Shown: positions 1 to 34,319 of the stretch, in pieces
Position numbering within the stretch: position 1 is the first letter of the stretch
Layout of the letters: every line of letters starts with the position of its first letter
IMG/VR virus record: IMGVR_UViG_2778261009_000009
Origin: a virus
Taxonomy: Duplodnaviria > Heunggongvirae > Uroviricota > Caudoviricetes
Strand: one strand, 5' to 3'
Length of the DNA: 35,253 nucleotides
The notes under the pieces: model-generated
Databases searched by the model: none
Seen by the model: only the letters and a program-made list of their open reading frames with translations
Told to the model about the DNA's origin: nothing
Made by a program: the position numbers and the translations under genes

Positions 1-1
1 A

Positions 2-568
2 TTAGCCTCTTATCTTGAATTCTGCTATAACTTTGCCGATGAATACAAGGTCATTAATGTTCATATCAACAATGATATTCCCATAGTTAATCTTAACTTT
101 ATTATCAGGAATTCTAATAACTTGTTTTATAGAATGCTTTCCATCAATGGAGATTAACCAATCACCATCAACTACATCTGTGAAATCCCTCTCAATAAAA
201 TAAGAGTTATTCCCGTTTGATATCACAGATGGTGATGATAAACCATCAGGAATGAACACTTTGTCAAACATTAGTGTTCCTGCATCCAATAGCACTCCAT
301 CAATCAATTTTATTTTTTGAATATTGATGATGTCAGAAGTTAAATATTCATGTTTAGGAGGTAAGCCTGTTACCAGCCACTTTATGTTTACTCCTGTTTC
401 GAGCGCGCACTGAATAACCCAATCAGAAGGGAATGAATCTCTCATGTAGCGTGTAGCAAGACTGCTTTTTGATATGCCTAGTTGTTCACATAACGCCTGT
501 CTTGTAGTGAACCCATAGGCTTCAACCATCCTTTCGATAGCTTTCTTTCCACCTTGACTAAAATCCAT
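2..568 (-). CDS. cI: 186-type CI immunity repressor (N-terminal HTH, no LexA-like Ser/Lys peptidase motif); ATG at 568 preferred over GTG at 673
   Basis: HTH-like segment GFTTRQALCEQLGISKSSLATRYM; AGGTGA Shine-Dalgarno 4 nt before ATG at 568; longer ORF would contain the divergent promoter. Confidence 0.65.
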   Translation of the reverse strand: MDFSQGGKKAIERMVEAYGFTTRQALCEQLGISKSSLATRYMRDSFPSDWVIQCALETGVNIKWLVTGLPPKHEYLTSDIINIQKIKLIDGVLLDAGTLMFDKVFIPDGLSSPSVISNGNNSYFIERDFTDVVDGDWLISIDGKHSIKQVIRIPDNKVKINYGNIIVDMNINDLVFIGKVIAEFKIRG

Positions 569-569
569 C

Positions 570-645
570 GATTTCACCTTGTGAACTTTATGGTTGACGA
601 TTTCAATTTGTGATCTTATAGTCGCATTGATTTCAAAATGTGACT
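570..645. promoter_or_regulatory. Three direct copies of a 17-bp element GATTTCA-N4-TGTGA (570-586, 599-615, 629-645; spacing 29-30 bp), putative repressor operators overlapping the early promoter
   Basis: Read directly: gatttcaccttgtgaac / gatttcaatttgtgatc / gatttcaaaatgtgact; each has partial dyad TCA(C/A)-N3-GTGA. Confidence 0.45.
594..622 (+). promoter_or_regulatory. Sigma70-type early rightward promoter (pR-like): TTGACG (594-599), 17-bp spacer, TATAGT (617-622)
   Basis: Near-consensus -35/-10 hexamers with 17-bp spacing about 70 bp upstream of apl-like ORF. Confidence 0.5.
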
Positions 646-694
646 TACAACTACTCGTCAATGTTAAACACACTTAAACAGGAGATGTTGCCTT

Positions 695-916
695 ATGACT
701 CAGCACATTTCAATCACATTAGCTGTCCCATCCATTTCGGTTGAAAAGTACAGTGAACTCACAGGGTTATCTGTAGACACTATCAACAGTATGCTCGCAG
801 ATGGACGCCTTAAGCGGCATCGTCTTCGCAAGGATAAAAAACGTGAAAAGGTAATGATCAACATTGCAGCCATGACAGTGGATGCGCTTGCCGATTCCAA
901 TGTCGTAATCAATTGA
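695..916 (+). CDS. Apl/Cox-like small HTH early regulator/excisionase
   Basis: 73-aa ORF first in rightward operon, divergent from cI; AGGAG 10 nt upstream; HTH-like KYSELTGLSVDTINSMLADGRL. Confidence 0.55.
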   Translation: MTQHISITLAVPSISVEKYSELTGLSVDTINSMLADGRLKRHRLRKDKKREKVMINIAAMTVDALADSNVVIN

Positions 917-948
917 TTCGATTTTGAAATAAAGGGAAGGGGCTGACT

Positions 949-1458
949 ATGTTTGATTATCAAGTTTCCAAACATCCACATTTTGACGAAGCCTGTCGTG
1001 CATTCGCACTGCGCCACAACCTGGTGCGACTGGCAGAACGTGCAGGCATGAATGTACAGATTCTGCGGAACAAGCTGAACCCAGCTCAACCTCATTTATT
1101 AACCGCACCAGAAATCTGGTTGCTTACCGATCTGACTGAAGATTCAACGCTGGTAGATGGCTTTCTGGCACAGATTCACTGCCTGCCATGTGTACCGATT
1201 AATGAGGTGGCAAAAGAGAAACTGCCGCATTATGTCATGAGTGCAACCGCAGAGATCGGGCGTGTTGCTGCAGGTGCGGTATCTGGCGATGTAAAAACCA
1301 GTGCAGGTCGTCGTGATGCTATCAGCAGCATTAACTCTGTAACACGACTGATGGCGCTGGCCGCTGTTTCATTGCAGGCCCGTTTACAGGCTAATCCTGC
1401 GATGGCGAGTGCAGTTGATACCGTGACTGGCCTCGGTGCTTCATTCGGTTTGCTGTGA
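949..1458 (+). CDS. cII: CII-like lysogeny establishment regulator (169 aa, same length as phage 186 CII)
   Basis: Position after apl; strong RBS GGGAAGGGG; recognised from memory as the P2/186 CII family, not database-checked. Confidence 0.65.
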
Positions 1459-1465
1459 GGTGCTT

Positions 1466-1666
1466 ATGCTGACGAAAGAACCATCATTTGCATCGCTGCT
1501 GGTAAAACAAAGTCCGGCAATGCACTACGGTCACGGCTGGATCATGGGTGAGGATGGTAAACGCTGGCATCCGTGCCGTTCACAAGATGAATTGCTGGCA
1601 GAACTATCTACGAAAAAACGGGGGAACAAATGGCTATTGAAGGCGCTGCGGCGACTGTTCCATTAA
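1466..1666 (+). CDS. hypothetical early protein (66 aa)
   Basis: ATG at 1466 preceded by GAGGTG; overlaps cII stop; long form from 1436 rejected. Confidence 0.4.
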   Translation: MLTKEPSFASLLVKQSPAMHYGHGWIMGEDGKRWHPCRSQDELLAELSTKKRGNKWLLKALRRLFH

Positions 1667-6589: not shown

Positions 6590-7048
6590 CTATTTAGTTT
6601 TTTCAATCATAGTGCTTTCGGCTTTTGAATATACACTATTAATAGTGGTGATTTTTGTAGTTAATGCTATACAAACTAGACTCAGAAGTAAGACACCAAT
6701 TGATATTGTATTGTTGCTGAGTATTATATGTAGACAAATAGAATAAATTGCAACAATGACTATTGCTACGAAAACAAAGATTGCCATTAAATTATGTGCT
6801 TTGATGTAGTCCTCAGGGGTTAATATGTAGCTTATGTTTATGATTATAAATAAAATTAAAAATGCTCCCCCAATCCATTTGGGTAGGGCTGTTTCTTTTT
6901 TTGATACTGCAGGTGTGGTTCTTGGGATCGATTCTACGAAGGATTTAAGATTTCCCATGTCAGTATTGTTTAATGCTGCACTTTCTGCTTCGAATTTTGA
7001 AACAGTGCCATCAGGAAGGGTTGTAGTCCAGCTTATTTTTCCTGTCAT
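6590..7048 (-). CDS. cargo membrane protein (152 aa; about 55-aa soluble N-terminus then about 3 TM helices), unknown function
   Basis: AT-rich ORF; start ATG overlaps upstream stop (ATGA); AGGGA RBS; hydrophobic segments FLILFIIINISYIL, MAIFVFVAIVIVAIYSI, IGVLLLSLVCIAL. Confidence 0.6.
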   Translation of the reverse strand: MTGKISWTTTLPDGTVSKFEAESAALNNTDMGNLKSFVESIPRTTPAVSKKETALPKWIGGAFLILFIIINISYILTPEDYIKAHNLMAIFVFVAIVIVAIYSICLHIILSNNTISIGVLLLSLVCIALTTKITTINSVYSKAESTMIEKTK

Positions 7049-7419
7049 ACAACATCCCTTATTCTGAATATTCTATTAAAATCAATATCAACAGCAGAGT
7101 TCGACCACTCACTCTTTTGATTATCTTTAATTAGAATTGCTTTGTTCTCGTCAAAGATTATATTTGTACCACTAAACTCAATATGAGATAGGTCTCCTCT
7201 AAATATTTTTTGCTCAACGCTTTTGAATGCATCTTTTAATGATGCACACTCTTTTCTGAATAATGGTTTGGGGCTGTAAGTCCCTAAGTTTATAACTATT
7301 ACGCCACTACCATCTTTAGCAGGGTGAATGGAGAAAGATAGCGCTAATCCGTGATAGTGGGATTGTATTTTCTTCATTAATTTACGAACGTAATCATCAT
7401 ACCGCTTTCTATATATCAT
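7045..7419 (-). CDS. cargo soluble protein (124 aa), unknown function, first gene of two-gene operon
   Basis: AT-rich ORF translationally coupled to 6590..7048; candidate promoter TCGACA-18-TAATAT upstream on minus strand. Confidence 0.55.
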   Translation of the reverse strand: MIYRKRYDDYVRKLMKKIQSHYHGLALSFSIHPAKDGSGVIVINLGTYSPKPLFRKECASLKDAFKSVEQKIFRGDLSHIEFSGTNIIFDENKAILIKDNQKSEWSNSAVDIDFNRIFRIRDVV

Positions 7420-7583
7420 TTTTTTCTTAATGGTTAGTTGTTTTTCGTATATTACAATACTAATAAATATATTGTCGATTCAAATAAAACGTTGTAGCCA
7501 AGCGGAAGAATTTTAGTTTACGGATGGTTGTTTTTTGATCTCCATAGCCGAAGGCAATCTGAACTATAGTGATCATAAAAGTG

Positions 7584-7627
7584 TTTACATTCATGGAACT
7601 ACGCATATACTGTATATGTGTACAGTG
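7584..7627 (+). promoter_or_regulatory. SOS-regulated promoter: -35 TTTACA (7584-7589), -10 TATACT (7606-7611), LexA box TACTGTATATGTGTACAGTG (7608-7627)
   Basis: Perfect CTGT-N8-ACAG palindrome (7610-7625) overlapping the -10 and start site, about 30 bp upstream of a strong RBS. Confidence 0.7.
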
Positions 7628-7657
7628 CTTTCTGTGTGTTTGGTGATAGGAGGGAAG

Positions 7658-7846
7658 ATGCAAGACTATTTTTTGGAGTCGTTGAAGCTCCAGCGCATTG
7701 ATTTTTTTGTCAAGCTTGTGGCGGCTAGTGAGTGTGATGATGAAGAGAAGCGACTGGCTATCCAGTGGGTTTCTGAGTTAACGGATGAGCTGATGGCAAA
7801 GATTCGTGCTCATGAATACAACCGCTCAATGGATCTTCCCAGTTAA
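7658..7846 (+). CDS. SOS-controlled small protein (62 aa), candidate Tum/DinI-like antirepressor
   Basis: ATG at 7658 with TAGGAGGGA RBS immediately downstream of LexA box; acidic small protein; weak resemblance to DinI C-terminus. Confidence 0.55.
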   Translation: MQDYFLESLKLQRIDFFVKLVAASECDDEEKRLAIQWVSELTDELMAKIRAHEYNRSMDLPS

Positions 7847-7924
7847 CAGCAGGAACGTTGCTGGCGTGAGAACTAGCTTCTTACGTCAGCAAGGTTAAAC
7901 AACGAGTACAACGAGGCGTTAGCC

Positions 7925-8191
7925 ATGGGTAAATCCAACAGCAAATTCCAGACCGTTTATGAGGGGCAGGCGCTTGAACGTGACGAACTTGGCGGATGGG
8001 TTTTGTTTCAGCGTCGTGTAGAGTATGGCGGCAAGTACTGGATGGGAATAACCATGGATGATGTGTTTTTGTTTGGCTCCGATCATCCTGTATCAGGTAG
8101 TGAGGCGATGGTCTTCATCATTGATTATGAGGGCGAGCAGCTCAGACGGTCTTTACCCGTTGGATACACCCCACAAATGCCGCTTTTCTGA
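7925..8191 (+). CDS. SOS-operon second gene (88 aa), unknown function
   Basis: ORF with GAGG RBS, same strand, followed by strong terminator. Confidence 0.5.
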   Translation: MGKSNSKFQTVYEGQALERDELGGWVLFQRRVEYGGKYWMGITMDDVFLFGSDHPVSGSEAMVFIIDYEGEQLRRSLPVGYTPQMPLF

Positions 8192-8258
8192 CAACCGGCT
8201 GGGTGCATGTCTATGCTGCATGAGATCGCATGATCGTTTGAGGATCGTTTTCGCTGAG

Positions 8259-8286
8259 GCCCGCCAGAACTGGCGGGCTTTTGCTT
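8259..8286 (+). terminator. rho-independent terminator of the SOS operon
   Basis: 8-bp GC stem gcccgcca/tggcgggc, loop gaac, followed by TTTTGCTT. Confidence 0.75.
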
Positions 8287-8327
8287 ATGTCATGCAGGTG
8301 CATGAAAATCGCTCCATAAAGCGGGCA

Positions 8328-8346
8328 GGCGTGGCGGGGATACGAG
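8328..8346. other. candidate cos site (cohesive-end sequence) GGCGTGGCGGGGATACGAG
   Basis: First 13 nt match the P2/186-family 19-nt cohesive end as I recall it (GGCG(A/T)GGCGGGGAAAGCA...); lies in non-coding DNA between right-end genes and the Q side. Confidence 0.35.
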
Positions 8347-8433
8347 CGCGCGCAATAGGGTTATGTACAATAAATTTTTGACGATCTTCGAGTGTTATTA
8401 GCTTGAGGCTGTCAGGGAAAATGAATACAATAA

Positions 8434-8465
8434 GAAGCGCCTAGCAGAATGTTACTAGGCGCTTC
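8434..8465 (-). terminator. perfect 11-bp inverted repeat hairpin (gaagcgcctag ... ctaggcgcttc), possible terminator of the minus-strand cargo operon
   Basis: Read directly; followed on minus strand by T-rich stretch; no T-run on plus. Confidence 0.35.
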
Positions 8466-8498
8466 GAATATATAACCTGTATGACTTTCTTAACCTAC

Positions 8499-8606
8499 TT
8501 ATCTTTTTGATTTCTTCTTCGTATCATCGTGATCGAATACTTGGCGTGTAGGCGGCTTGCTGGGTGGTGGCGGCGGCGGTAAATTAGATTTCTCATTTTT
8601 GCTCAT
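8499..8606 (-). CDS. polyproline mini-ORF 3 (35 aa): MSKNEKSNLPPPPPPSKPPTRQVFDHDDTKKKSKR
   Basis: Hand-translated; own AGGA RBS; start lies inside the end of mini-ORF 2; paralogous to two upstream mini-ORFs. Confidence 0.35.
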   Translation of the reverse strand: MSKNEKSNLPPPPPPSKPPTRQVFDHDDTKKKSKR

Positions 8607-8724
8607 CTTTATTTTTCCTATTTTTTGGATCATTGCCATAGCTTTCTCTAACTAACCGAGTGATTGGCGGTTTAGGTGGTGGTGGTGGTGCTTCATTTTT
8701 TTTAGGATTTTTGTGTTCGGTCAT
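8593..8724 (-). CDS. polyproline mini-ORF 2 (43 aa): MTEHKNPKKNEAPPPPPKPPITRLVRESYGNDPKNRKNKDEQK
   Basis: In-frame portion of track ORF 8593..8778 starting at ATG 8724 with AAGGA RBS; overlaps neighbours in other frames. Confidence 0.4.
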   Translation of the reverse strand: MTEHKNPKKNEAPPPPPKPPITRLVRESYGNDPKNRKNKDEQK

Positions 8725-8839
8725 TTTTATCGTCCTTTCTGTCTCTTCGTAGTTGCCTTGCTTTTGAATCATCTTCAATAACGATCCTTCTTGCGGGTGG
8801 AGTAGGCCGAGGAGGTGGTGGCGGTAACGGTTTGGTCAT
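8702..8839 (-). CDS. polyproline mini-ORF 1 (45 aa): MTKPLPPPPPRPTPPARRIVIEDDSKARQLRRDRKDDKNDRTQKS
   Basis: Hand-translated; ATG overlaps stop of upstream membrane-protein gene (TAATG); AGGAGA RBS 5 nt upstream. Confidence 0.4.
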   Translation of the reverse strand: MTKPLPPPPPRPTPPARRIVIEDDSKARQLRRDRKDDKNDRTQKS

Positions 8840-9489
8840 TAAGTTCTCCTGACATTTTCAATAGGTATTATCAAATAGTTAGGGTCGTTATTTTTCCGCG
8901 GTGATGCTGCATCTAAATCAGCTAAAAGAAATATGACTACTGCTGCGATAATTGGAATCCATGACCAGACAAGATACTTTGTTGACTCAAATAGTTTACT
9001 GGAACGTTCCTCATTGATATTACTGTTCCAGCTAGCACATTCTCTGATTTCTTGATGAATAAACTCCCAAAGTTTATTATCAGGGTTATAACTTTCATCG
9101 TATGTAAGTCCATTGTCATCGCAATATTTTTTATATTTCACTTCGTAACTAATCAGATCTATGTGATAATCATGCAATGCTTTAGGTGCAGGGCAATACT
9201 TAAATTCATTTCCCCATATGACTTGTTTCAACAGAATTGATGATACAAGAACTAAACCAAATGAAATTGCGGTACATAAAAATACTAGGCAAGCTAGCCT
9301 TGGGTGGGATTCATAAGATGTATTTTTGGCGAGATAAGTGAGTATAGTTGCGGTAATGACAACTAATCCGAATTCGGCTTGAGCGCGAGTATGTATCTTG
9401 TCTTTATTCTCAATTTCTGAGAAATAAAGTTTTTCGTAAAATTCTAATGCTTTATCCTTTTTCATTTTTAGATTCAGTGTGATGTCCAT
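8839..9489 (-). CDS. cargo membrane protein (216 aa; two N-proximal TM helices, soluble Cys-containing middle domain, C-terminal TM helix), unknown function
   Basis: AT-rich ORF between portal terminator and mini-ORFs; hydrophobic segments FGLVVITATILTYL, LACLVFLCTAISFGLVLVSSILL, VWSWIPIIAAVVIFLL. Confidence 0.6.
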   Translation of the reverse strand: MDITLNLKMKKDKALEFYEKLYFSEIENKDKIHTRAQAEFGLVVITATILTYLAKNTSYESHPRLACLVFLCTAISFGLVLVSSILLKQVIWGNEFKYCPAPKALHDYHIDLISYEVKYKKYCDDNGLTYDESYNPDNKLWEFIHQEIRECASWNSNINEERSSKLFESTKYLVWSWIPIIAAVVIFLLADLDAASPRKNNDPNYLIIPIENVRRT

Positions 9490-20981: not shown

Positions 20982-21579
20982 TCTGCTGCCACCGGGTTCA
21001 ACGCCACTAGAGCGCCGACTGGCGCAAGCGTGCAGCGGGATTTCTGATTTGCAGGTGCCGCTGCGTGACTTGTGGAATCCGGCAACCTGTCCAGTCAGTT
21101 TCCTGCCTTATCTCGCCTGGGCGTTCTCTGTGGATCGCTGGGACGAGGGCTGGACAGAAAGCGTCAAGCGCCAGGTGGTGAAGGATGCTTTTTATATTCA
21201 TCAGCATAAAGGGACCACCAGTGCCGTGCGGCGGGTGGTGGAGCCGTTCGGCTTTCTGATCCGCATTATTGAGTGGTGGCAGACCGGAGAGGCACCGGGC
21301 ACGTTTCGCCTGGATATCGGCGTGCAGGACCAGGGCATCACTGAAGATACCTATCTGGAACTTGAGCGACTGATAAGCGATGCCAAACCATGTAGCCGTC
21401 ACATGATCGGCATGTCCATCAATCTGCAGACCAGCGGCCCGCATTGGGTGGGAGCCGCCAGCTATCTTGGCGAAGAAATCACGATCTATCCGTATATCAA
21501 CGAAACAATTATTTCCGGTGGCACCGCGCATGAAGGCGGGGCGGTCCATGTTATTGACACAATGAGAGTGAATCCATGA
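20974..21579 (+). CDS. I: baseplate/tail protein gpI-like
   Basis: 201-aa ORF overlapping J stop. Confidence 0.8.
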   Translation: MNSLLPPGSTPLERRLAQACSGISDLQVPLRDLWNPATCPVSFLPYLAWAFSVDRWDEGWTESVKRQVVKDAFYIHQHKGTTSAVRRVVEPFGFLIRIIEWWQTGEAPGTFRLDIGVQDQGITEDTYLELERLISDAKPCSRHMIGMSINLQTSGPHWVGAASYLGEEITIYPYINETIISGGTAHEGGAVHVIDTMRVNP

Positions 21580-23117
21580 GCACAAAATTTTATACCCTGC
21601 TGACGGATATTGGCGCGGCGAAACTTGCCAGCGCCGCCGCGCTCGGTGTGCCTTTAAAAATTACCCATATGGCGGTCGGCGATGGCGGCGGAACATTGCC
21701 AACGCCGGACGCAAAGCAGACAGCATTGGTAAATGAGAAACGCCGGGCTGCGCTGAATATGCTCTATATCGACCCGCAGAACAGCAGCCAGATTATTGCC
21801 GAACAGGTAATCCCTGAAAACGAGGGCGGTTGGTGGATACGTGAAGTGGGCCTGTTTGATGAGTCAGGGGCATTGATTGCCGTGGGAAACTGCCCGGAAA
21901 GCTATAAGCCGCAACTGGCTGAAGGCAGCGGGCGTACCCAGACCGTGCGCATGGTGCTGATTACCAGCAGCACGGACAATATCACCCTGAAAATCGACCC
22001 TGCTGTAGTGCTGGCAACCCGCAAGTATGTGGATGACAAGGCACTGGAGCTGAAGGTGTACGCGGATGATCAGATGGCAAAACATCTTGCCGCACCGAAC
22101 CCGCATTCACAGTATGCAGCCAAAGAAAGTCCTACGTTTACCGGGACACCCAAAGCGCCAACGCCAGCGGCGGGGAATAACACCACGCAGGTTGCGACCA
22201 CCGCATTTGTTCAGGCGGCACTGACGGCTCTTATTAATGGTGCGCCAGCCACGCTGGACACGCTGAAAGAAATAGCCGTAGCCATTAACAATGATCCGAA
22301 ATTCAGTACCACCATTAACAATGCGCTGGCACTGAAAGCGCCGCTGTCGAGTCCGGCACTCACCGGAACGCCAACAGCCCCTACGGCGGCGCAGTCGGTC
22401 AATAATACACAGATTGCCACTACGGCTTTTGTGAAATCGGCGATTGCAGGAATGGTGGGTTCTGCACCTGCGGCACTGGATACACTGAACGAACTGGCGG
22501 CGGCACTGGGGAATGATCCGAACTTTGCCACGACAATGCTTAATGCGCTGGCAGGTAAACAACCGCTGGACAATACGCTGACTAATTTGAGTGGAAAGGA
22601 TGTAGCTGGTCTTCTCACATACCTTGGTTTGGGAGAAGGCTCTGCATTACCTGTTGGTGTGCCTGTTCCGTGGCCTTCCGCCACTCCGCCGACAGGCTGG
22701 CTGAAATGCAACGGAGCAGCTTTTTCTGCTGAAGAATACCCGGAACTGGCAAAGGCTTATCCGACAAATAAATTGCCTGATTTACGCGGTGAATTTATTC
22801 GTGGCTGGGATGACGGACGTGGAGTGGATAACGGAAGGGGATTATTAACGCTTCAGGACGGTGCGATTGTCAGTCATAACCACTATTGGGGAATCTGGAC
22901 TTCACGAACTAACGACCAGACTCTGGAAAGTTTTACAGGCACCACGATTTTAAAACAAATCACGCCCCTGTCTCCAGCCATTGACTTCGATAATTACCCA
23001 ATTCCCAACCCGGCTATTACAGAGGGTGGTGTTGTTGCGGCAACGACTAAACCTGCAGGTGCGAATGAAACACGCCCACGAAATGTCGCTTTTAACTATA
23101 TTGTGAGGGCTGCATAA
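21576..23117 (+). CDS. H: tail fibre protein gpH-like; constant part 21576-22637 fused to the currently expressed variable C-terminal domain 22638-23117
   Basis: 513-aa ORF with N-terminal fibre anchor, two copies of a ~75-aa fibre repeat, C-terminal receptor-binding-like domain. Confidence 0.85.
   Translation: MSTKFYTLLTDIGAAKLASAAALGVPLKITHMAVGDGGGTLPTPDAKQTALVNEKRRAALNMLYIDPQNSSQIIAEQVIPENEGGWWIREVGLFDESGALIAVGNCPESYKPQLAEGSGRTQTVRMVLITSSTDNITLKIDPAVVLATRKYVDDKALELKVYADDQMAKHLAAPNPHSQYAAKESPTFTGTPKAPTPAAGNNTTQVATTAFVQAALTALINGAPATLDTLKEIAVAINNDPKFSTTINNALALKAPLSSPALTGTPTAPTAAQSVNNTQIATTAFVKSAIAGMVGSAPAALDTLNELAAALGNDPNFATTMLNALAGKQPLDNTLTNLSGKDVAGLLTYLGLGEGSALPVGVPVPWPSATPPTGWLKCNGAAFSAEEYPELAKAYPTNKLPDLRGEFIRGWDDGRGVDNGRGLLTLQDGAIVSHNHYWGIWTSRTNDQTLESFTGTTILKQITPLSPAIDFDNYPIPNPAITEGGVVAATTKPAGANETRPRNVAFNYIVRAA
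22612..22637. other. invertase crossover site (hix/gix-like 26-bp site, left) inside H
   Basis: ttctcacataccttggtttgggagaa; reverse complement shares 14 of 14 bp (ttctcccaaaccaa) with the second site; central AA dinucleotide. Confidence 0.7.
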
Positions 23118-23719
23118 TGAATAACGCAGAATTAAACAGTGAATTAATTGCCACTATAGCAGGAGAAATTACTGTTTATAACTTTGACGTCATGAGTCGG
23201 GAGTATATTTCAGCTTCAACTGAATATCTTGCTGTTGGTGTCGGCATTCCGGCATATTCCTGTTTAGATGCTCCAGGCACCTACAAAGCTGGTTATGCAA
23301 TCTGCCGCTCTGCAGATTTTAACTCATGGGAATATGTACCAGACCATCGCGGTGAAATTGTCTTTAGCACCGAAACAGGAGAATCAAAAGAAATCACAGC
23401 ACCGGGTGATTACCCTGATAATACAACCACTATCGCCCCGTTAACGCCATACGATAAATGGGATGGTGAGAAATGGGTGACGGATACCGAGGCACAGCAT
23501 AGCGCCGTAGTAGATGCAGCAGAAGCACAGCGCCAGTCGCTGATTGATACAGCAATGGCTTCTATCAGTCTGATTCAACTGAAATTACAGGCCGGACGGA
23601 ATCTGACGCAGGCAGAAACCGCCCGACTTAACGCTGCGCTGGATTACATTGACGCGGTGACGGCAACAGATACCAGCACCGCACCGGATGTCATCTGGCC
23701 TGAACTGCCGGAGGCGTAG
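23117..23719 (+). CDS. G: tail fibre assembly protein (Tfa, gpG-like), expressed orientation
   Basis: 200-aa ORF overlapping H stop; conserved C-terminal APDVIWPELP-type motif. Confidence 0.8.
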   Translation: MNNAELNSELIATIAGEITVYNFDVMSREYISASTEYLAVGVGIPAYSCLDAPGTYKAGYAICRSADFNSWEYVPDHRGEIVFSTETGESKEITAPGDYPDNTTTIAPLTPYDKWDGEKWVTDTEAQHSAVVDAAEAQRQSLIDTAMASISLIQLKLQAGRNLTQAETARLNAALDYIDAVTATDTSTAPDVIWPELPEA

Positions 23720-24110
23720 GCCATTCAATATCTGGAGCACTGGAGGGATCAACCAGTTCCAGTGCGTCCAGATAATCCAGCCATAAATTATATTGCGCCA
23801 GTTCCTCACCTTTCAGACGACCAATAGCCGCTTTACCTAGCCATTGTCTGCTGTTCATGTGCTCGTTGGCTTCATTAATAAGTTTTCTTTTTTCCAACTC
23901 CACCAATGCAATAAGGTTTTCTTTTGATAAAGGTGGTTGCTCTGTCAAAACCGGATATCCCTCCTGATTGCTGACTATTTTCATGCCATTATCCTGACCA
24001 TCCAGTAGTAACAGCCATTCATCCGTGGTTATCTCAACAGCATCTGAAGGTGCTTTATTTAAATCGGTAAAAAAACCATTTTCTTTTTGTGAATAGAAGT
24101 ATCTGTCCAT
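23691..24110 (-). CDS. alternative tail fibre assembly protein (Tfa'), silent orientation
   Basis: 139-aa ORF with Tfa-type C-terminus SAPDIEWPTPP; follows alternative fibre segment on minus strand. Confidence 0.7.
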   Translation of the reverse strand: MDRYFYSQKENGFFTDLNKAPSDAVEITTDEWLLLLDGQDNGMKIVSNQEGYPVLTEQPPLSKENLIALVELEKRKLINEANEHMNSRQWLGKAAIGRLKGEELAQYNLWLDYLDALELVDPSSAPDIEWPTPPAVQAR

Positions 24111-24113
24111 TTA

Positions 24114-24487
24114 TCAATCTCCAAAAGCAATCCAGTAAGCAAAAGGATTTATTCCTTGCTCAGTCACAGATGACATCAGGGAAAATTGCGATGGTGAAAC
24201 AGGCAATGCTGCAAAACTAACCATTGTTGACACACCTGACCGTGCATTATCGTACGATGCAACAACACAATAATTGGTATTGCTGAAAGATATCGGCAGG
24301 GTGATATTTACAGGTGAGCCTAATGGTCCTGATGCTGATATTCCCATTTGAATGATGGTTCCATCAGGCAATTTTCTCCAGCGATTAGAACTCGGATTTC
24401 TTTTCCAGGCTGACATATCCGGTATCTGATTTTCTCCTGTACCCACATCCCTTTTCGCCGCTTCTCCCAAACCAACGTTTATTAAAA
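24114..24487 (-). CDS. alternative tail fibre C-terminal variable segment (H'v), no own start; becomes fused to H constant part after inversion
   Basis: Reading frame continues through crossover site encoding GLGE shared with H (…YLGLGE); ends 3 nt before Tfa' start. Confidence 0.65.
24462..24487. other. invertase crossover site (hix/gix-like 26-bp site, right), next to invertase gene
   Basis: ttctcccaaaccaacgtttattaaaa with central AA; inverted relative to site at 22612-22637. Confidence 0.7.
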
Positions 24488-24542
24488 TGCAGAGATAATG
24501 GCTAACTGGCATCATCCATGGTTTTTATTCAGGGGATTGATC

Positions 24543-25109
24543 ATGCTTATTGGCTATGTACGCGTGTCAACAAATGACCAGAACACCGATTTGCAACGTA
24601 ATGCACTGAACTGCGCGGGATGTGAGCGGATTTTTGAGGATAAAATCAGTGGCACTAAGCCCGACAGACCGGGGCTTAAAAAACTGCTCAGGACACTATC
24701 GGCTGGAGACACTCTGGTTGTCTGGAAGCTGGACAGGTTGGGGCGCAGTATGCGGCATCTTGTTACGCTGATAGAAGAGTTGCGTCAGCGTGGCGTGAAT
24801 TTCCGAAGCCTGACTGACAGTATTGATACCAGCACCCCAATGGGCCGTTTCTTTTTTCATGTCATGGGGGCCCTGGCTGAAATGGAACGCGAACTGATAG
24901 TTGAACGTACCATGGCAGGGCTGGCTGCAGCTCGTGCCAAAGGCAGAGTAGGTGGACGCCGTCCTAAGTTGACCACCGAACAGTGGGCACAGATTGGGCG
25001 TTTACTCGAGGCCGGAGAATCAAGACAGCGTATTGCACTGATTTTTGATGTAGGCGTTTCTACCATTTATAGAAAATTTCCGGCAAATAAGAGCAATGAA
25101 TCCCCCTGA
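24543..25109 (+). CDS. serine DNA invertase (Hin/Gin/Cin/Pin family)
   Basis: N-terminal MLIGYVRVSTNDQ catalytic-serine motif, resolvase domain, C-terminal HTH; ATG 24543 with AGGGGA RBS. Confidence 0.85.
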   Translation: MLIGYVRVSTNDQNTDLQRNALNCAGCERIFEDKISGTKPDRPGLKKLLRTLSAGDTLVVWKLDRLGRSMRHLVTLIEELRQRGVNFRSLTDSIDTSTPMGRFFFHVMGALAEMERELIVERTMAGLAAARAKGRVGGRRPKLTTEQWAQIGRLLEAGESRQRIALIFDVGVSTIYRKFPANKSNESP

Positions 25110-30510: not shown

Positions 30511-30992
30511 TGATGGTGCTGGGATTGTACGTGTTTATGCTGCGCACCGTGCCATATCAGGAACTGCAGTATCAACGCAGCTGGCGACATGCGGCTAACA
30601 GCCGGGTAAATCGTCGTCCGTCCACGCAGTTTCTGGGACCGGACAACGACATGCTGACGCTTTCCGGTGTTCTTATGCCGGAGATAACAGGCGGCAGGCT
30701 GTCGTTGCTGGCACTTGAGCAGATGGCAGAACAGGGGAAAGCATGGCCCCTGATTGAAGGCAGCGGCACGATTTACGGCATGTATGTGATTGAGGGACTG
30801 AATCAGACTAAAACGGAGTTTTTCCGCGACGGTATGCCGCGCCGGATTGAGTTCACCCTGTCGCTCAAACGGGTGGATGAATCCCTGTCCGATATGTTCG
30901 GTGATCTCAGTGCGCAGCTGAATAATCTGCAGGACACGGCAACATCTGCATTAAGCGATATCAGTAAAACGGTGGGAGGGCTGCTGTCGTGA
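30507..30992 (+). CDS. U: tail protein gpU-like
   Basis: 161-aa ORF overlapping T stop. Confidence 0.8.
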   Translation: MMMVLGLYVFMLRTVPYQELQYQRSWRHAANSRVNRRPSTQFLGPDNDMLTLSGVLMPEITGGRLSLLALEQMAEQGKAWPLIEGSGTIYGMYVIEGLNQTKTEFFRDGMPRRIEFTLSLKRVDESLSDMFGDLSAQLNNLQDTATSALSDISKTVGGLLS

Positions 30993-32089
30993 ATTTCAGC
31001 TCTGAACTGCTTAACAAAGGCAACAAAACTCCCGCATTCAGCATCAGTATTGAGGGCAGGGATATCACTACTGTGCTGGATAACCGCTTGATGAGTCTGA
31101 CGCTGACGGACAATCGGGGATTTGAAGCGGACCAGCTTGATCTGGAGCTGGACGACGCCGACGGAAAAATCGTGCTGCCGCGCCGTGGTGCGGTCATTAC
31201 GCTGGCGCTGGGGTGGAAGGGGCAGCCGCTTTTCCCGAAAGGGGCATTCACGGTGGACGAGATTGAACACACTGGCGCACCGGACCGCCTGACTATCCGG
31301 GCGCGAAGTGCTGATTTTCGTGAAACGCTGAATACCCGCCGTGAAAAATCGTGGCACAAGACCACCGTTGGGGAAGTGGTGAAGGAAATATCTGCGCGGC
31401 ACAAACTGAAGATGGCATTGGGTGAAGACCTGTCGGATAAACCCGTGGAGCATATAGACCAGACCAATGAGAGTGACGGCAGTTTTCTGATGCGGCTGGC
31501 GCGCCAGTACGGTGCTATTGCGTCGGTGAAAAATGGCAATCTGTTATTCATCCGGCAGGGACAGGGTAAAAGCGCCAGCGGTAAACCACTACCGGTTATC
31601 ACTATCACACGTAAGGACGGCGACAGTCACCGCTTTACCCTGGCAGATCGCGGAGCCTACACGGGCGTAATTGCCAGCTGGTTGCATACCCGCGAACCCG
31701 CGAAGAAAGAAAGCACCACGGTGAAGCGTAAGCGCAGGACTAAGAAGCAGAAGAAAGAGCCGGAAGCGAAGCAGGGCGATTACCTAGTGGGTACGGATGA
31801 AAACGTGCTGGTACTTAATCGCACTTATGCCAACCGGAGCAACGCCGAACGAGCGGCGAAAATGCAGTGGGAACGCCTGCAACGCGGCGTTGCGTCATTC
31901 TCGTTACAACTGGCGGAAGGGCGGGCAGATCTCTACACGGAAATGCCAGTGAAAGTCAGTGGCTTTAAACAGCCGATAGATGATGCGGAATGGACCATTA
32001 CGACTCTGACGCATACCGTAAGCCCGGATAATGGTTTTACGACCAGTCTGGAGCTTGAAGTGAGGATTGATGATTTCGAAATGGAATGA
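30989..32089 (+). CDS. D: tail protein gpD-like (GTG start)
   Basis: 366-aa ORF, GGGAGGG RBS, P2 order. Confidence 0.8.
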   Translation: MNFSSELLNKGNKTPAFSISIEGRDITTVLDNRLMSLTLTDNRGFEADQLDLELDDADGKIVLPRRGAVITLALGWKGQPLFPKGAFTVDEIEHTGAPDRLTIRARSADFRETLNTRREKSWHKTTVGEVVKEISARHKLKMALGEDLSDKPVEHIDQTNESDGSFLMRLARQYGAIASVKNGNLLFIRQGQGKSASGKPLPVITITRKDGDSHRFTLADRGAYTGVIASWLHTREPAKKESTTVKRKRRTKKQKKEPEAKQGDYLVGTDENVLVLNRTYANRSNAERAAKMQWERLQRGVASFSLQLAEGRADLYTEMPVKVSGFKQPIDDAEWTITTLTHTVSPDNGFTTSLELEVRIDDFEME

Positions 32090-32179
32090 TTCTTCGCAAT
32101 GGAGAACTTTTAAGTTTGCAAAATGGAATAATGCGGTATCATTATTGTGAATTTAGCAAAAATGGGGAGAACTCGAAAA

Positions 32180-32398
32180 ATGATGATTTGCCCACTGTGT
32201 GGAAGTGCCGCCCATACTCGCAGCAGTTTTCAGGTATCTTCATTGACCAAAGAGCGTTACAACCAGTGCCAGAACATTAACTGCAGCCATACTTTTGTTA
32301 CCCATGAAACTTTTGTTCGTTCGATTGCAACGCCAAAAGAGTCAAATCCGGTTCAGCCGCATCCAATGAAATCAGGACAGGTGGCGCTCTCTCTTTGA
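32180..32398 (+). CDS. ogr: Ogr/Delta-family zinc-finger late transcription activator (72 aa)
   Basis: MMICPLCGSAAHTRSS...CQNINCSHTF four-Cys pattern; same length as P2 Ogr; ATG at 32180. Confidence 0.8.
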   Translation: MMICPLCGSAAHTRSSFQVSSLTKERYNQCQNINCSHTFVTHETFVRSIATPKESNPVQPHPMKSGQVALSL

Positions 32399-32478
32399 CG
32401 CTGCCGCCATTTTGTCGCCATCGTTAAAAAACAGTGCTTCTAACATCATGATTTTAAACAGCTTAAATTTCAGGCAAC

Positions 32479-32521
32479 AAAAAACCCATCAACCTTGAAC
32501 CGAAATGGCGGGGTTGATGGG
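32479..32521 (-). terminator. rho-independent terminator, probably of host ybjL
   Basis: 10-bp stem cccatcaacc/ggttgatggg with 17-nt loop, followed on minus strand by T6 (plus A-run 32479-32484). Confidence 0.5.
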
Positions 32522-32633
32522 CTCCACAAAATGGGGACATCAAAGAAAAGCAGTGGCACTAATTAAGACTGATGCCCTGCGGAAAAGTTCTGCGGTTGTG
32601 CAAAAAAATTTCATTTTCAGGGCAACTTCAGTT

Positions 32634-34319
32634 TTATCCTAATCCTGGCCATACCATGACGATGATTGTCCCTGCCAGCGTCAGCAGGACGTTGGCGATT
32701 GCATAGGTGCCCGCATAGCCCAGCGCCGGGATGTTACTGCGAGCTGTATCACTGATGATCTCCATTGCCGGCGCGCAGGTACGTGCGCCCATCATTGCGC
32801 CGAACAACAGCGCGCGGTTCATTCGCAATACATAAGCACCGAACAAGAAACAGATAACCACGGGCACCAGACTGACAATCAATCCGGCAATCAACATCTG
32901 ACCGCCAATCGCGCCCAGGCCGTTATTAATACCGCTACCGGCGCTCAGACCAACGCCTGCCATAAACACCATCAAGCCGAACTCTTTCACCATGCTTAAT
33001 GCACCCTGCGGAATGTAACCGAAGGTCGGGTGGTTAGCACGCATAAAGCCCAGCATAATTCCGGCGAATAACAACCCGGCAGCGTTCCCCATGCCGAAAC
33101 TGAATGTGCTGAACTGGAAGGTGATCATCCCGATCATCAGCCCAATAACAAAGAAGGCGCAGAATGCCAGCAGGTCAGTGACCTGGCTGTGAATCGAGAT
33201 AAAGCCGATGCGATCGGCGATGGTTTTTACGCGGCGGGCATCGCCGCTGACTTGTAAAACGTCACCTTTGTTAAGCACGACGTTGTCATCTATCGGCATC
33301 TCAATCTGGCTACGAATGACGCGGTTAAGGAAGCAACCGTGATCGGTCAACTTCAGTTGTGCGAGACGTTTACCTACAGCGTTATGGTTTTTAACGACCA
33401 CTTCTTCAGTGACGATACGCATGTCGAGAAGGTCACGATCGAAAACTTCTTTACCGTTACGGAAGCTGGGATCGAGTCGGGCATGGGCGTCGGGATAGCC
33501 TACCAACGCTATTTCATCGCCCATTTGTAGCACGGCATCACCGTCTGGATTTGCCAGAATCCCGTTACGTCGAATACGTTCAATGTAGCAGCCGGTTTGT
33601 CGATAAATACCCAGTTCACGCAGATTTTTGCCGTCGGTCCAGGCCACCAGTTCCGGGCCGACGCGATAGGCGCGGATCACCGGTAAATAAACCTTACGGT
33701 TGGCATCAGTGTCCAGGCCACGTTCGCGGGCGATTTGCTGGGCGCTGGTCTGTAAGTCCTGATGCTGCAATTTCGGCAAGTAACGCGCACCAACAATCAA
33801 ACTCACCAGACCGATTAAATAGGTTAAGGCATACCCGAGGCTCAGATTATCCAGTGCCAGTGAGAGCTGCCTGCTTTCCATGCCGGAATGACGCAGTGTA
33901 TCGCCAGCACCGACCAGAACCGGTGTCGACGTCATAGAGCCTGCTAACATACCGGCCGTCAGGCCAATATCCCAGCCAAACAGCTTACCTAACCCTAAGG
34001 CGATCACCAGCGCACTGCCAACCATCACCAGTGCTAACATTAGGTAATTTTTCCCATCGCGAAAAAAAATGGAAAAAAAGTTCGGTCCGGCTTCGACCCC
34101 GACGCAGAAAATAAACAGCATAAAGCCAAGATTAAGCGCATCGGTGTTAATGCTGAAATGTTGTTGGCCTAATAACAGCGATACGACTAAAACGCCAATG
34201 GAATTACCCAGTTGGATCGAACCAAGTCGTAACTTTCCGAGACATAGCCCAAGCGCGAGGACCACAAATAATAACAGAATGTAATTCCCATTTAACAATT
34301 CGGCGACGTTTATATTCAC
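32634..34319 (-). CDS. ybjL: host putative transporter YbjL (AAE family, 561 aa, GTG start)
   Basis: Multi-TM N- and C-terminal halves flanking soluble RCK_C-like repeats; recognised as E. coli YbjL. Confidence 0.8.

What the first reader, a model, noticed from the sequence alone, without database searches (positions are those of the whole stretch)
32399..32633. Prophage right junction between ogr and host ybjL
ogr ends at 32398 and host ybjL (convergent) ends at 32634; the 235-bp interval contains a minus-strand terminator hairpin (32479-32521) likely belonging to ybjL. The attachment core must lie roughly at 32399-32480. No tRNA-like gene is visible here, so this element appears to use a non-tRNA site next to ybjL.
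Basis: inference. Interest (0 to 1): 0.35.

Follow-up and report, generated by a model that had tools for sequence, protein, structure and literature searches.

The report
Prophage junction inside rybB sRNA gene
This is the right-hand end of a P2/186-type prophage inserted into the last 14 bases of the small regulatory RNA gene rybB; this landing site is well documented and occupied in about a fifth of complete E. coli genomes, so the finding is ordinary.

Summary
The coordinates hold: ogr ends at 32398, ybjL ends at 32634, there is a minus-strand hairpin with a T-tract at 32479-32521, and there is no tRNA. Comparing the window's attR with empty rcdA-rybB-ybjL sites, with attL of closely related lysogens and with the free attP of Klebsiella phage KP12 places the common core at AACAAAAAACCCAT (32476-32489). 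This is the last 14 nt of rybB. The identity grows to 26 bp (32464-32489) against a second natural E. coli attB allele. So the core overlaps the hairpin and does not lie wholly to its left. Positions 32399-32463 are the phage P arm, with two tandem 186-type integrase arm sites at 32402-32423. The integrase and attL lie beyond the left edge of the window, which starts in cI. Integration leaves rybB unchanged (225/225 identical to an empty site). P2-like prophages at rybB are already published (Archer 2011; Hudson 2014; Hochhauser 2023), and 1115 of 5426 complete E. coli genomes carry this junction. Verdict: real, correctly located, partly misread, already known, low interest.

The parts
32180..32398 (+). 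ogr/B late-gene activator, the last phage gene before attR (the ORF is also open from a GTG at 32147)
   Evidence: Pfam PF04606 Ogr_Delta E 5e-22; phrog_603; RefSeq records annotate an 'ogr/Delta-like zinc finger family protein' under the match
32399..32463 (+). Phage P arm of attP, retained at attR. It is phage DNA, absent from empty sites.
   Evidence: Not present in the empty sites L001/L002. Present next to ogr in the free phage KP12 (L005 3000-3064) and in Klebsiella phage 4LV2017.
32402..32423 (+). Two tandem 186-type integrase arm-type sites, 11 bp apart: TGCCGCCATTT and TGTCGCCATCG
   Evidence: 10/11 and 8/11 matches to the 186 consensus YAYCGCCAYTY taken from the 186 record, and a match to tgccGCCActt in PMC3448106. 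The same tandem pair recurs in the P' arm of relatives (L006 1748-1769, L005 3186-3207, L004 1007-1028). Binding is inferred, not shown.
32441..32453 (-). Weak candidate IHF site AATCATGATGTTA (12/13 to WATCAANNNNTTR), lying in a palindrome at 32441-32456
   Evidence: Read from the sequence; palindrome. There is no exact consensus match in the interval. Its position between the arm sites and the core parallels the IHF footprint in 186. Low confidence.
32464..32489 (+). Extended core TAAATTTCAGGCAACAAAAAACCCAT: 26/26 identical to the 'B2-type' E. coli attB allele and 22/26 to the K-12-type allele
   Evidence: The E. whittamii empty site has the same sequence (L039).
32476..32489 (+). Minimal common core AACAAAAAACCCAT, shared by attB, attP, attL and attR. 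Strand exchange must occur within it in K-12-type hosts. On the minus strand it is the last nucleotides of rybB (AUGGGUUUUUU plus GUU).
   Evidence: Alignment A1; junction table for 9 loci; identity blocks; present only once in the window
32479..32557 (-). rybB, a 79-nt Hfq-dependent, sigma-E-dependent sRNA gene, intact
   Evidence: Rfam RF00110 105.3 bits, E 7e-21, full model. Positions 32476-32700 are 225/225 identical to an empty-site strain. Located in the ybjK(rcdA)-ybjL spacer as described in PMC1804206. The 5' end at 32557 comes from my own knowledge of the published RybB sequence.
32483..32523 (-). RybB rho-independent terminator hairpin (12 pairs), followed by U6 at 32484-32479.
   Evidence: Fold; Rfam consensus structure line
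32564..32590 (-). rybB sigma-E promoter: GAACTT (-35, 32590-32585), a 16-nt spacer, TCTTA (-10, 32568-32564), then 6 nt to +1
   Evidence: Sequence read-out. Strict sigma-E dependence and conserved motifs are reported in PMC1804206. The match to the motif was judged by eye.
32634..34319 (-). Host gene ybjL (aspartate:alanine antiporter family), whose stop codon lies 76 bp upstream of rybB +1
   Evidence: Pfam; RefSeq annotation
695..916 (+). Apl/Cox-type excisionase-repressor, the recombination directionality factor expected to act at this att site
   Evidence: phrog_575 'Cox-like excisionase and repressor', E 3.6e-26. It sits between cI (2-673, minus strand, PF07022/PF16452) and cII (949-1458), as in 186.

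Best explanation
Positions 32399-32633 hold the attR junction of a 186-type member of the P2 family (Peduoviridae) integrated into the 3' end of the sRNA gene rybB, which lies between rcdA (ybjK) and ybjL. A tyrosine integrase is encoded just beyond the left edge of the window. It recombined phage attP (ogr, P arm, core, P' arm, int) with host attB inside the block AACAAAAAACCCAT. On the rybB strand this block is the last 5 nt of the terminator stem, the U-tract and two more bases. The phage carries an identical copy of that block, so rybB is regenerated unchanged at attR, with host promoter, seed region and stem and a shared 3' end. At attL the same block completes a phage-borne hairpin (CCCATTTATATAAATGGG plus T6) that can terminate the leftward int/lysogenic transcript. 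The architecture copies phage 186, which uses the 3' end of a tRNA-Ile gene: tandem arm-type Int sites in both arms, a probable IHF site, and an Apl/Cox excisionase. What is shown: the identity of rybB, the position of the core, the attP structure, the intact state of rybB and how common the site is. What is inferred: protein binding at the arm and IHF sites, the exact cleavage positions, and the terminator function of the attL hairpin.
For: RybB is found at 105 bits over the full model. The empty sites L001/L002 read rcdA-...GATAACAAAAAACCCATCAACC...-rybB-ybjL. attL of three K-12-type lysogens reads rcdA...GAT|AACAAAAAACCCAT|TTAT(A/G)TAAA, and attR of the window reads ...GGC|AACAAAAAACCCAT|CAACC. 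Free-phage KP12 has ogr, the P arm, AACAAAAAACCCAT, TTATGTAAACGGG and then int, which is exactly the predicted attP. The depositors of Klebsiella phage 4LV2017 annotated attL/attR as (G)CAGGCAACAAAAAACCCAT next to Klebsiella rybB. The identity block is 26 bp with the B2-type attB. The arm-site pairs match the 186 consensus. The integrases of rybB-site phages are 86-99.7% identical to each other and 52-56% identical to the Int proteins of 186 and Fels-2. An Apl/Cox homologue is present. 1115 of 5426 complete E. coli genomes have the ogr-rybB-ybjL junction. The site is published: PMC3032704 lists 'rybB ncRNA: Rybb*W/B/Cr (P2)', PMC4048246 describes Kpn38RybB 'precisely within the gene for RybB', and PMC10121019 reports hotspot #29.
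Against: The window's own attL and integrase are not in the window, and no record in the collection matches the whole window (best 96% coverage at 97% identity). attL was therefore read from relatives; one of them, 13TMH22, is 100% identical over window 1-1500. A 14-bp match is not significant on its own; its meaning rests on the four-way junction comparison. No exact IHF consensus lies in the P arm. The simple terminator scan reported nothing here because the RybB loop exceeds its limit.
Confidence: 0.95

Rival explanations
1. One reading: the phage uses an anonymous, non-RNA intergenic site beside ybjL, the hairpin is only ybjL's terminator, and the core lies wholly to the left of it (32399-32480).
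For: There is no tRNA. ybjL is co-oriented with the hairpin and has no other terminator before it, so ybjL read-through may well stop there.
Against: A full-length RybB gene with its own sigma-E promoter occupies 32479-32590 (PMC1804206). The sequence shared by attL, attR, attB and attP runs to 32489, which is inside the hairpin. Positions 32399-32463 are absent from empty sites.
Confidence: 0.03
2. The functional crossover (overlap) region lies in the left part of the 26-bp extended core (32464-32475), and the 14-bp block is only a flanking core-type binding site.
For: attP matches the B2-type attB over all 26 bp. AATTTCAGGCAAC recurs next to rybB in many genera. Cores in the P2 family are typically more than 20 bp (PMC3448106).
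Against: In three lysogens with the K-12-type attB, attL keeps the host version of 32464-32475 (TAAGTTTTAGAT) and attR keeps the phage version. Exchange therefore took place to the right of 32475. Four mismatches inside an overlap region would normally block a tyrosine recombinase (established knowledge of lambda-type integrases).
Confidence: 0.07
3. The junction belongs to a decayed, immobile prophage remnant, or arose by homologous recombination between prophages and not by Int-mediated insertion.
For: The window's int and attL cannot be inspected. The prophage is a mosaic relative to every database record. Several genera carry short ogr-less inserts at this site.
Against: The window holds an uninterrupted P2-type gene set from cI to ogr, with intact ORFs. 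The junction is base-for-base the canonical attR seen in 1115 genomes and predicted from the free-phage attP.
Confidence: 0.05

Closest known systems
P2-like prophages at rybB in E. coli: Rybb*W, Rybb*B and Rybb*Cr (Archer et al. 2011, PMC3032704); PhiECO1/2/3 (Nilsson & Haggard-Ljungquist 2011, PMC3448106); defence hotspot #29 'Felsduovirus in rybB' (Hochhauser et al. 2023, PMC10121019)
   Same: The same host locus and the same phage family with the same gene order. The ogr-rybB-ybjL junction is seen in 1115 of 5426 complete genomes. PhiECO2 is in ATCC 8739 (Crooks), the strain that carries Rybb*Cr.
   Different: Nothing essential differs. The window's prophage is one mosaic variant (best database match 96% coverage at 97% identity). 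The texts I could search do not state the 14/26-bp core or the two attB alleles.
Klebsiella rybB-site phages: Kpn38RybB island (Hudson et al. 2014, PMC4048246), Klebsiella phage 4LV2017 (Elveevirus, KY271398) and KP12
   Same: The late region is 95-97% identical in DNA. The integrase is at least 98.8% identical to those of E. coli lysogens D9 and 2018-11-3CC. The core and the target, rybB, are the same.
   Different: The host genus differs. The Klebsiella attB shares 19 bp with attP (CAGGCAACAAAAAACCCAT), against 14 or 26 bp in E. coli.
Coliphage 186 attP/attB (3' end of tRNA-Ile ileY)
   Same: The order is the same: B/ogr, tandem arm-type Int sites, IHF, the 3' end of an RNA gene as core, Apl sites, int. 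The arm-site consensus is the same. Both have a cI-apl-cII-fil switch. The Int proteins are 54-56% identical.
   Different: The target is an sRNA terminator, not a tRNA. The core is 14-26 bp, against 36 bp in common for 186. There is no tB-like terminator after ogr.
P2-type phages at cyaR (ryeE), lambdoid and other phages at sdsR/ryeB, and Fels-2/SopEPhi at ssrA
   Same: All integrate into the 3' end or terminator of a small stable RNA gene and regenerate it (PMC3603311; PMC3032704 table; PMC3333887; PMC3448106).
   Different: The RNA genes and core sequences differ. P2 itself has a P2-type (tgTGGaCa) arm specificity, not the 186-type.

Membership tests
RybB sRNA (Rfam RF00110) | Covariance-model score above the curated gathering threshold over the full model | tested here: met
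   105.3 bits against 40, E 7e-21, model positions 1-79 of 79, not truncated
RybB sRNA (Rfam RF00110) | Location in the ybjK(rcdA)-ybjL spacer, co-oriented with ybjL | tested here: met
   ybjL lies 76 bp upstream on the same strand. rcdA is adjacent in empty sites. The location is as described in PMC1804206.
RybB sRNA (Rfam RF00110) | Sigma-E-type promoter (GGAACTT, about 16 nt, TCnnA) upstream of +1 | tested here: met
   GAACTT, 16 nt, TCTTA, then 6 nt to +1, at 32590-32564. Judged by eye against the published motif. Activity was not tested.
RybB sRNA (Rfam RF00110) | Rho-independent terminator (stem plus U-tract) at the 3' end | tested here: met
   A 12-pair stem followed by U6
P2/186-type prophage att junction (Peduoviridae) | gpD and then ogr/B as the last genes before attR | tested here: met
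   PF05954 for 30989-32089 and PF04606 for 32180-32398
P2/186-type prophage att junction (Peduoviridae) | Direct repeat of the core at the other prophage end, next to a tyrosine integrase | tested here: inconclusive
   Met in relatives: L004, L006, L007 and L009 have rcdA, the core, a P' arm and int, and the int has PF24624 and PF00589. It cannot be tested for the window's own element because the window starts in cI and the core occurs only once in it.
P2/186-type prophage att junction (Peduoviridae) | A free-phage attP equal to the attR left flank, the core and the attL right flank, lying between ogr and int | tested here: met
   KP12, L005 3000-3165
186-type integrase specificity group (Nilsson & Haggard-Ljungquist 2011) | Direct-repeat arm sites matching tgccGCCActt / YAYCGCCAYTY on both sides of the core | tested here: met
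   The P arm has 32402-32423 (10/11 and 8/11). The P' arm of relatives has 10/11 and 10/11. Background is 94 single sites in 70,506 window positions, so a tandem pair spaced 11 bp apart is unlikely by chance.
186-type integrase specificity group (Nilsson & Haggard-Ljungquist 2011) | A cI-apl-cII lysis-lysogeny switch, as opposed to the P2 C-cox switch | tested here: met
   PF07022/PF16452 for cI; phrog_575 for Apl/Cox, phrog_101 for CII and phrog_816 for Fil
tRNA/tmRNA-gene integration site | A tRNA or tmRNA gene overlapping the att core | tested here: not met
   ARAGORN found 0 genes. Rfam reported only RybB, even at E<=1.

The most novel reading that the evidence does not exclude
Occupancy of the site may not be neutral for RybB. 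Unlike 186, whose B gene is followed by the tB terminator, this phage has no intrinsic terminator between ogr and the core. On induction, ogr or late read-through transcription would therefore run antisense through rybB and into the 3' end of ybjL, and could damp the sigma-E envelope-stress sRNA exactly when the phage is about to lyse the cell. Separately, the K-12-type attB allele has four substitutions packed into the 12 bp next to the crossover block, while the B2-type is shared with E. whittamii. This allele could be a host variant selected to lower integration efficiency.
Probability: 0.1. Interest if true: 0.35.

Novelty: already known. Interest (0 to 1): 0.08.

Why it matters
It matters mainly for annotation. 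PGAP-style records label only ybjL and ogr here, so the rybB gene and the att core go unmarked and the junction can be misread as an intergenic site. Recording that the core is the rybB terminator tail allows exact delimitation of a prophage family that occupies about 20% of complete E. coli genomes and carries variable defence cargo (14 bp are shared with all attB alleles, 26 bp with one). No new biology follows. sRNA 3' ends as phage attachment sites, and rybB specifically, are already established in the literature.

Tried and rejected
(1) I looked for a second copy of the core inside the window and found none, even allowing 2 mismatches, because the window begins in cI. attL therefore had to come from relatives.

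(2) I searched for a database record identical to the whole window. None exists; the best has 96% coverage at 97% identity. H1, which is 100% identical across attR, has a different early region.

(3) The simple terminator scan found nothing in 32100-32900. This is a limitation of the tool, because the RybB loop exceeds its 8-nt limit; it is not evidence of absence.

(4) An exact IHF consensus is absent from the interval. Only a 12/13 match exists, and I kept it as a weak candidate.

(5) The 30-bp tandem duplication of the core in Nissle 1917 CP007799.1 looked like a prophage-loss scar. It is absent from the other Nissle assembly shown among the top hits, and every other top hit listed matches only in two pieces. 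I rejected it as a probable assembly artefact.

(6) The apparent two classes of empty-site hits (alignments starting at query 365 or at 377) are not two kinds of site occupancy. They reflect megablast extending through the 22/26 partial match.

(7) The variant H7/L008 has an extra 120-aa ORF between ogr and att but the same core, so it is not a different site.

(8) I considered phage-driven conversion as the origin of the B2-type attB allele. This is unlikely, because E. whittamii shares it at an empty site, and K. pneumoniae and Salmonella share CAGGCAAC or CAGACAAC. That pattern points to the B2-type being ancestral.

Full report
**Observation.**
- The ORF that ends at 32398 is an Ogr/Delta zinc-finger protein (PF04606, E 5e-22) with its TGA at 32396-32398.
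- The minus-strand ORF 32634-34319 is YbjL (Asp-Al_Ex plus TrkA_C domains; annotated ybjL in matching RefSeq genomes).
- Between them, the minus strand forms a 12-pair hairpin (32483-32523) followed by six U.
- ARAGORN finds no tRNA or tmRNA anywhere in the window.

**What the hairpin is.** A covariance-model scan of the whole window returns exactly one hit above threshold. It is RybB (RF00110) at 32476-32554 on the minus strand, at 105.3 bits against a gathering score of 40, E 7e-21, with all 79 model positions matched. A permissive scan of 32300-32750 adds nothing else. Taking the published 5' end (my own knowledge of the RybB sequence), the gene is 32557-32479 and 79 nt long. Upstream lie GAACTT, 16 nt, TCTTA and then 6 nt to +1 (32590-32564). 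This fits the strictly sigma-E-dependent rybB promoter described for the ybjK-ybjL spacer (PMC1804206). ybjL read-through may also end there, but that is secondary.

**Locating the core.** Megablast of 32100-32900 against 5,426 complete E. coli genomes gives two classes. 1115 genomes cover the whole query, with ogr next to ybjL. The rest match only from about 32464/32476 rightwards. Empty sites (L001, L002) read rcdA-TAG-TAGATAAGTTTTAGAT-AACAAAAAACCCAT-CAACC...rybB.

The window starts in cI and not in the integrase (PF07022/PF16452), so attL is off-window and the core occurs only once in the window. I took attL from strain 13TMH22, which is 100% identical to window 1-1500, and from three further lysogens. 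All of them read rcdA...-AACAAAAAACCCAT-TTAT(A/G)TAAA(T/C)GGG..., followed by int.

The block shared by attB, attL and attR is AACAAAAAACCCAT, at window 32476-32489. The free-phage attP of Klebsiella phage KP12 has exactly the predicted structure: the ogr stop, the P arm, the same 14 bp, TTATGTAAACGGG, and then int. Klebsiella phage 4LV2017 carries depositor-annotated attL/attR of 19-20 bp, (G)CAGGCAACAAAAAACCCAT, abutting Klebsiella rybB.

**Two attB alleles.** One attL (strain N24) had the phage-type sequence to the left of the block, next to a divergent rcdA end. A synthetic empty site built from it matched many prophage-free genomes at 100%, for example ST131. E. coli therefore has two alleles:

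| Allele | Sequence at the site | Perfect identity with attP | Window coordinates |
|---|---|---|---|
| K-12-type | TAAGTTTTAGAT + block | 14 bp | 32476-32489 |
| B2-type | TAAATTTCAGGC + block | 26 bp | 32464-32489 |

A scan of one genome per species shows the B2-type at the empty site of E. whittamii, and CAGGCAAC or CAGACAAC at the empty sites of K. pneumoniae and Salmonella. The long match is therefore probably ancestral. In the three K-12-type lysogens attL keeps the host version of the 12 bp and attR keeps the phage version, so the exchange lies inside 32476-32489.

**Anatomy and mechanism.** On the rybB strand the 14-bp block reads AUGGG-UUUUUU-GU(U). That is the last five stem nucleotides of the terminator, the U-tract and two further bases. 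Because attP carries the same block, rybB is regenerated exactly: 32476-32700 is 225/225 identical to an empty-site strain. At attL the block completes a phage hairpin, CCCATTTATATAAATGGG plus T6 on the minus strand (-9.3 kcal/mol). This is a plausible terminator for the leftward int transcript, but that role is inferred.

Directly after the ogr stop, 32402-32423 holds two tandem 11-bp repeats, TGCCGCCATTT and TGTCGCCATCG. They match the 186-type arm-site consensus (tgccGCCActt in PMC3448106; YAYCGCCAYTY in the 186 record) at 10/11 and 8/11. An equivalent pair sits in the P' arm of relatives, within the 3' end of int. Phage 186 shows the same layout around its tRNA-Ile core.

The rest of the expected machinery is present:
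- A weak IHF-like site at 32441-32453 (12/13).
- An Apl/Cox homologue at 695-916.
- Integrases from rybB-site phages are 86-99.7% identical to each other across E. coli and Klebsiella, and 52-56% identical to the Int proteins of 186 and Fels-2.

Protein binding and the exact cleavage positions are inferred.

**Comparison with what is known.** This site is already in the literature.
- Archer et al. 2011 list "rybB ncRNA: Rybb*W, Rybb*B, Rybb*Cr (P2)", alongside P2-type elements at cyaR (PMC3032704).
- Nilsson and Haggard-Ljungquist 2011 group PhiECO1-3, at about 0.91 Mb, as sharing one integration site (PMC3448106).
- Hudson et al. [quoted passage not shown]
- Hochhauser et al. 2023 describe hotspot #29, occupied only by Felsduovirus-type phages integrated in rybB in 109 genomes (PMC10121019).
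- sRNA genes as phage targets in general are discussed by Bobay et al. 2013 (PMC3603311).

The exact core and the allele dimorphism are details I did not find stated in the searchable texts. They are refinements, not new biology.

**Verdict.** The feature is real and was correctly located, but partly misread. It is the attR of a P2/186-type prophage within the 3' end of rybB. The core is 32476-32489 (extendable to 32464), and the hairpin belongs to RybB. Novelty: already known. Interest: low.

The most novel reading that remains open concerns transcription. This phage has no terminator after ogr, in contrast to tB in 186, so convergent transcription during induction could run antisense through rybB. 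I give this about a 10% chance of being functionally meaningful.

Noticed in passing
window 23691-25109 (with 21576-23719): An invertible host-range module. Tail fibre H (21576-23117, +) and its assembly gene (23117-23719, +) are followed by an alternative fibre C-terminus (24114-24515, -, PF21882) and an alternative assembly gene (23691-24110, -, PF02413), which face a Gin/Cin/Hin-type serine invertase (24498-25109, +, PF00239, E 1e-52). Equivalent features are annotated in Fels-2 and 186.
   Followed up: partly
window 6590-9489: A block of minus-strand ORFs (152, 124, 67 and 216 aa) lies between replication gene A and the portal gene, in the position of the P2 old/tin cargo hotspot. None has a Pfam or PADLOC hit; two match only unknown-function PHROGs (phrog_18061, phrog_36961). 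They may be uncharacterised accessory or defence cargo.
   Followed up: partly
L004 2767-4500 (strain 13TMH22, just left of window position 1): An AAA ATPase (377 aa) and a DUF4276 protein (198 aa) lie between int and cI. They match the PADLOC candidate defence pair HEC-01A/B (E 2e-154 and 6e-63).
   Followed up: partly
L004 1240-1592 (between attL and int): A 117-aa Gly/Pro-rich ORF on the minus strand is built from about 13 tandem 24-bp repeats and has no Pfam or PHROG family. Next to it, at 1007-1028, is a relic pair of arm sites, which suggests the int module was replaced by recombination.
   Followed up: no
window 32464-32475 compared with L001 2489-2500: E. coli has two natural alleles of the 12 bp directly downstream of rybB. 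They differ at 4 of 12 positions, while the nearby rcdA end differs far less. One allele equals the phage attP sequence. An intermediate form (ATAAATTTTAGATAAC) occurs in L018 and L045.
   Followed up: partly
L017, L019, L020, L022, L024, L026, L029, L036, L037, L041, L044, L050: In 12 of 41 species-representative genomes, 0.5-4 kb of extra DNA separates rcdA from rybB, and no ogr or gpD is detected. In most of these loci the insert ends in a (A)ATTTCAGGCAAC-like sequence next to the core. These may be prophage remnants or other small elements using the same att site.
   Followed up: no
L033 (Actinoallomurus acaciae, 724-bp contig) and L047 (Chryseobacterium sp. 18061): These contigs carry enterobacterial rcdA/rybB/ybjL sequence. 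L033 is 99% identical to E. coli RcdA. This points to contamination of those assemblies. Two genomes labelled 'Enterobacter hormaechei' (L017, L024) encode a YbjL 100% identical to the window's.
   Followed up: no
L010 398-457 (Nissle 1917, CP007799.1): A 30-bp tandem duplication of the att core lies at an otherwise empty site, and the ybjL annotation there is broken. The duplication is absent from the other Nissle 1917 assembly shown among the top hits (CP022686.1) and from the other top hits listed, so it is probably an assembly artefact.
   Followed up: yes
window 32399-32484, + strand: There is no intrinsic terminator between the ogr stop and rybB (fold z +0.7), whereas phage 186 has tB right after its B gene. 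Transcription leaving ogr would therefore meet rybB head-on.
   Followed up: partly
L011 10905-12888 (Klebsiella phage 4LV2017): This close relative carries an RNA-directed DNA polymerase at the cargo position. This echoes the retron Ec86 reported on the E. coli B rybB prophage (PMC3032704).
   Followed up: no
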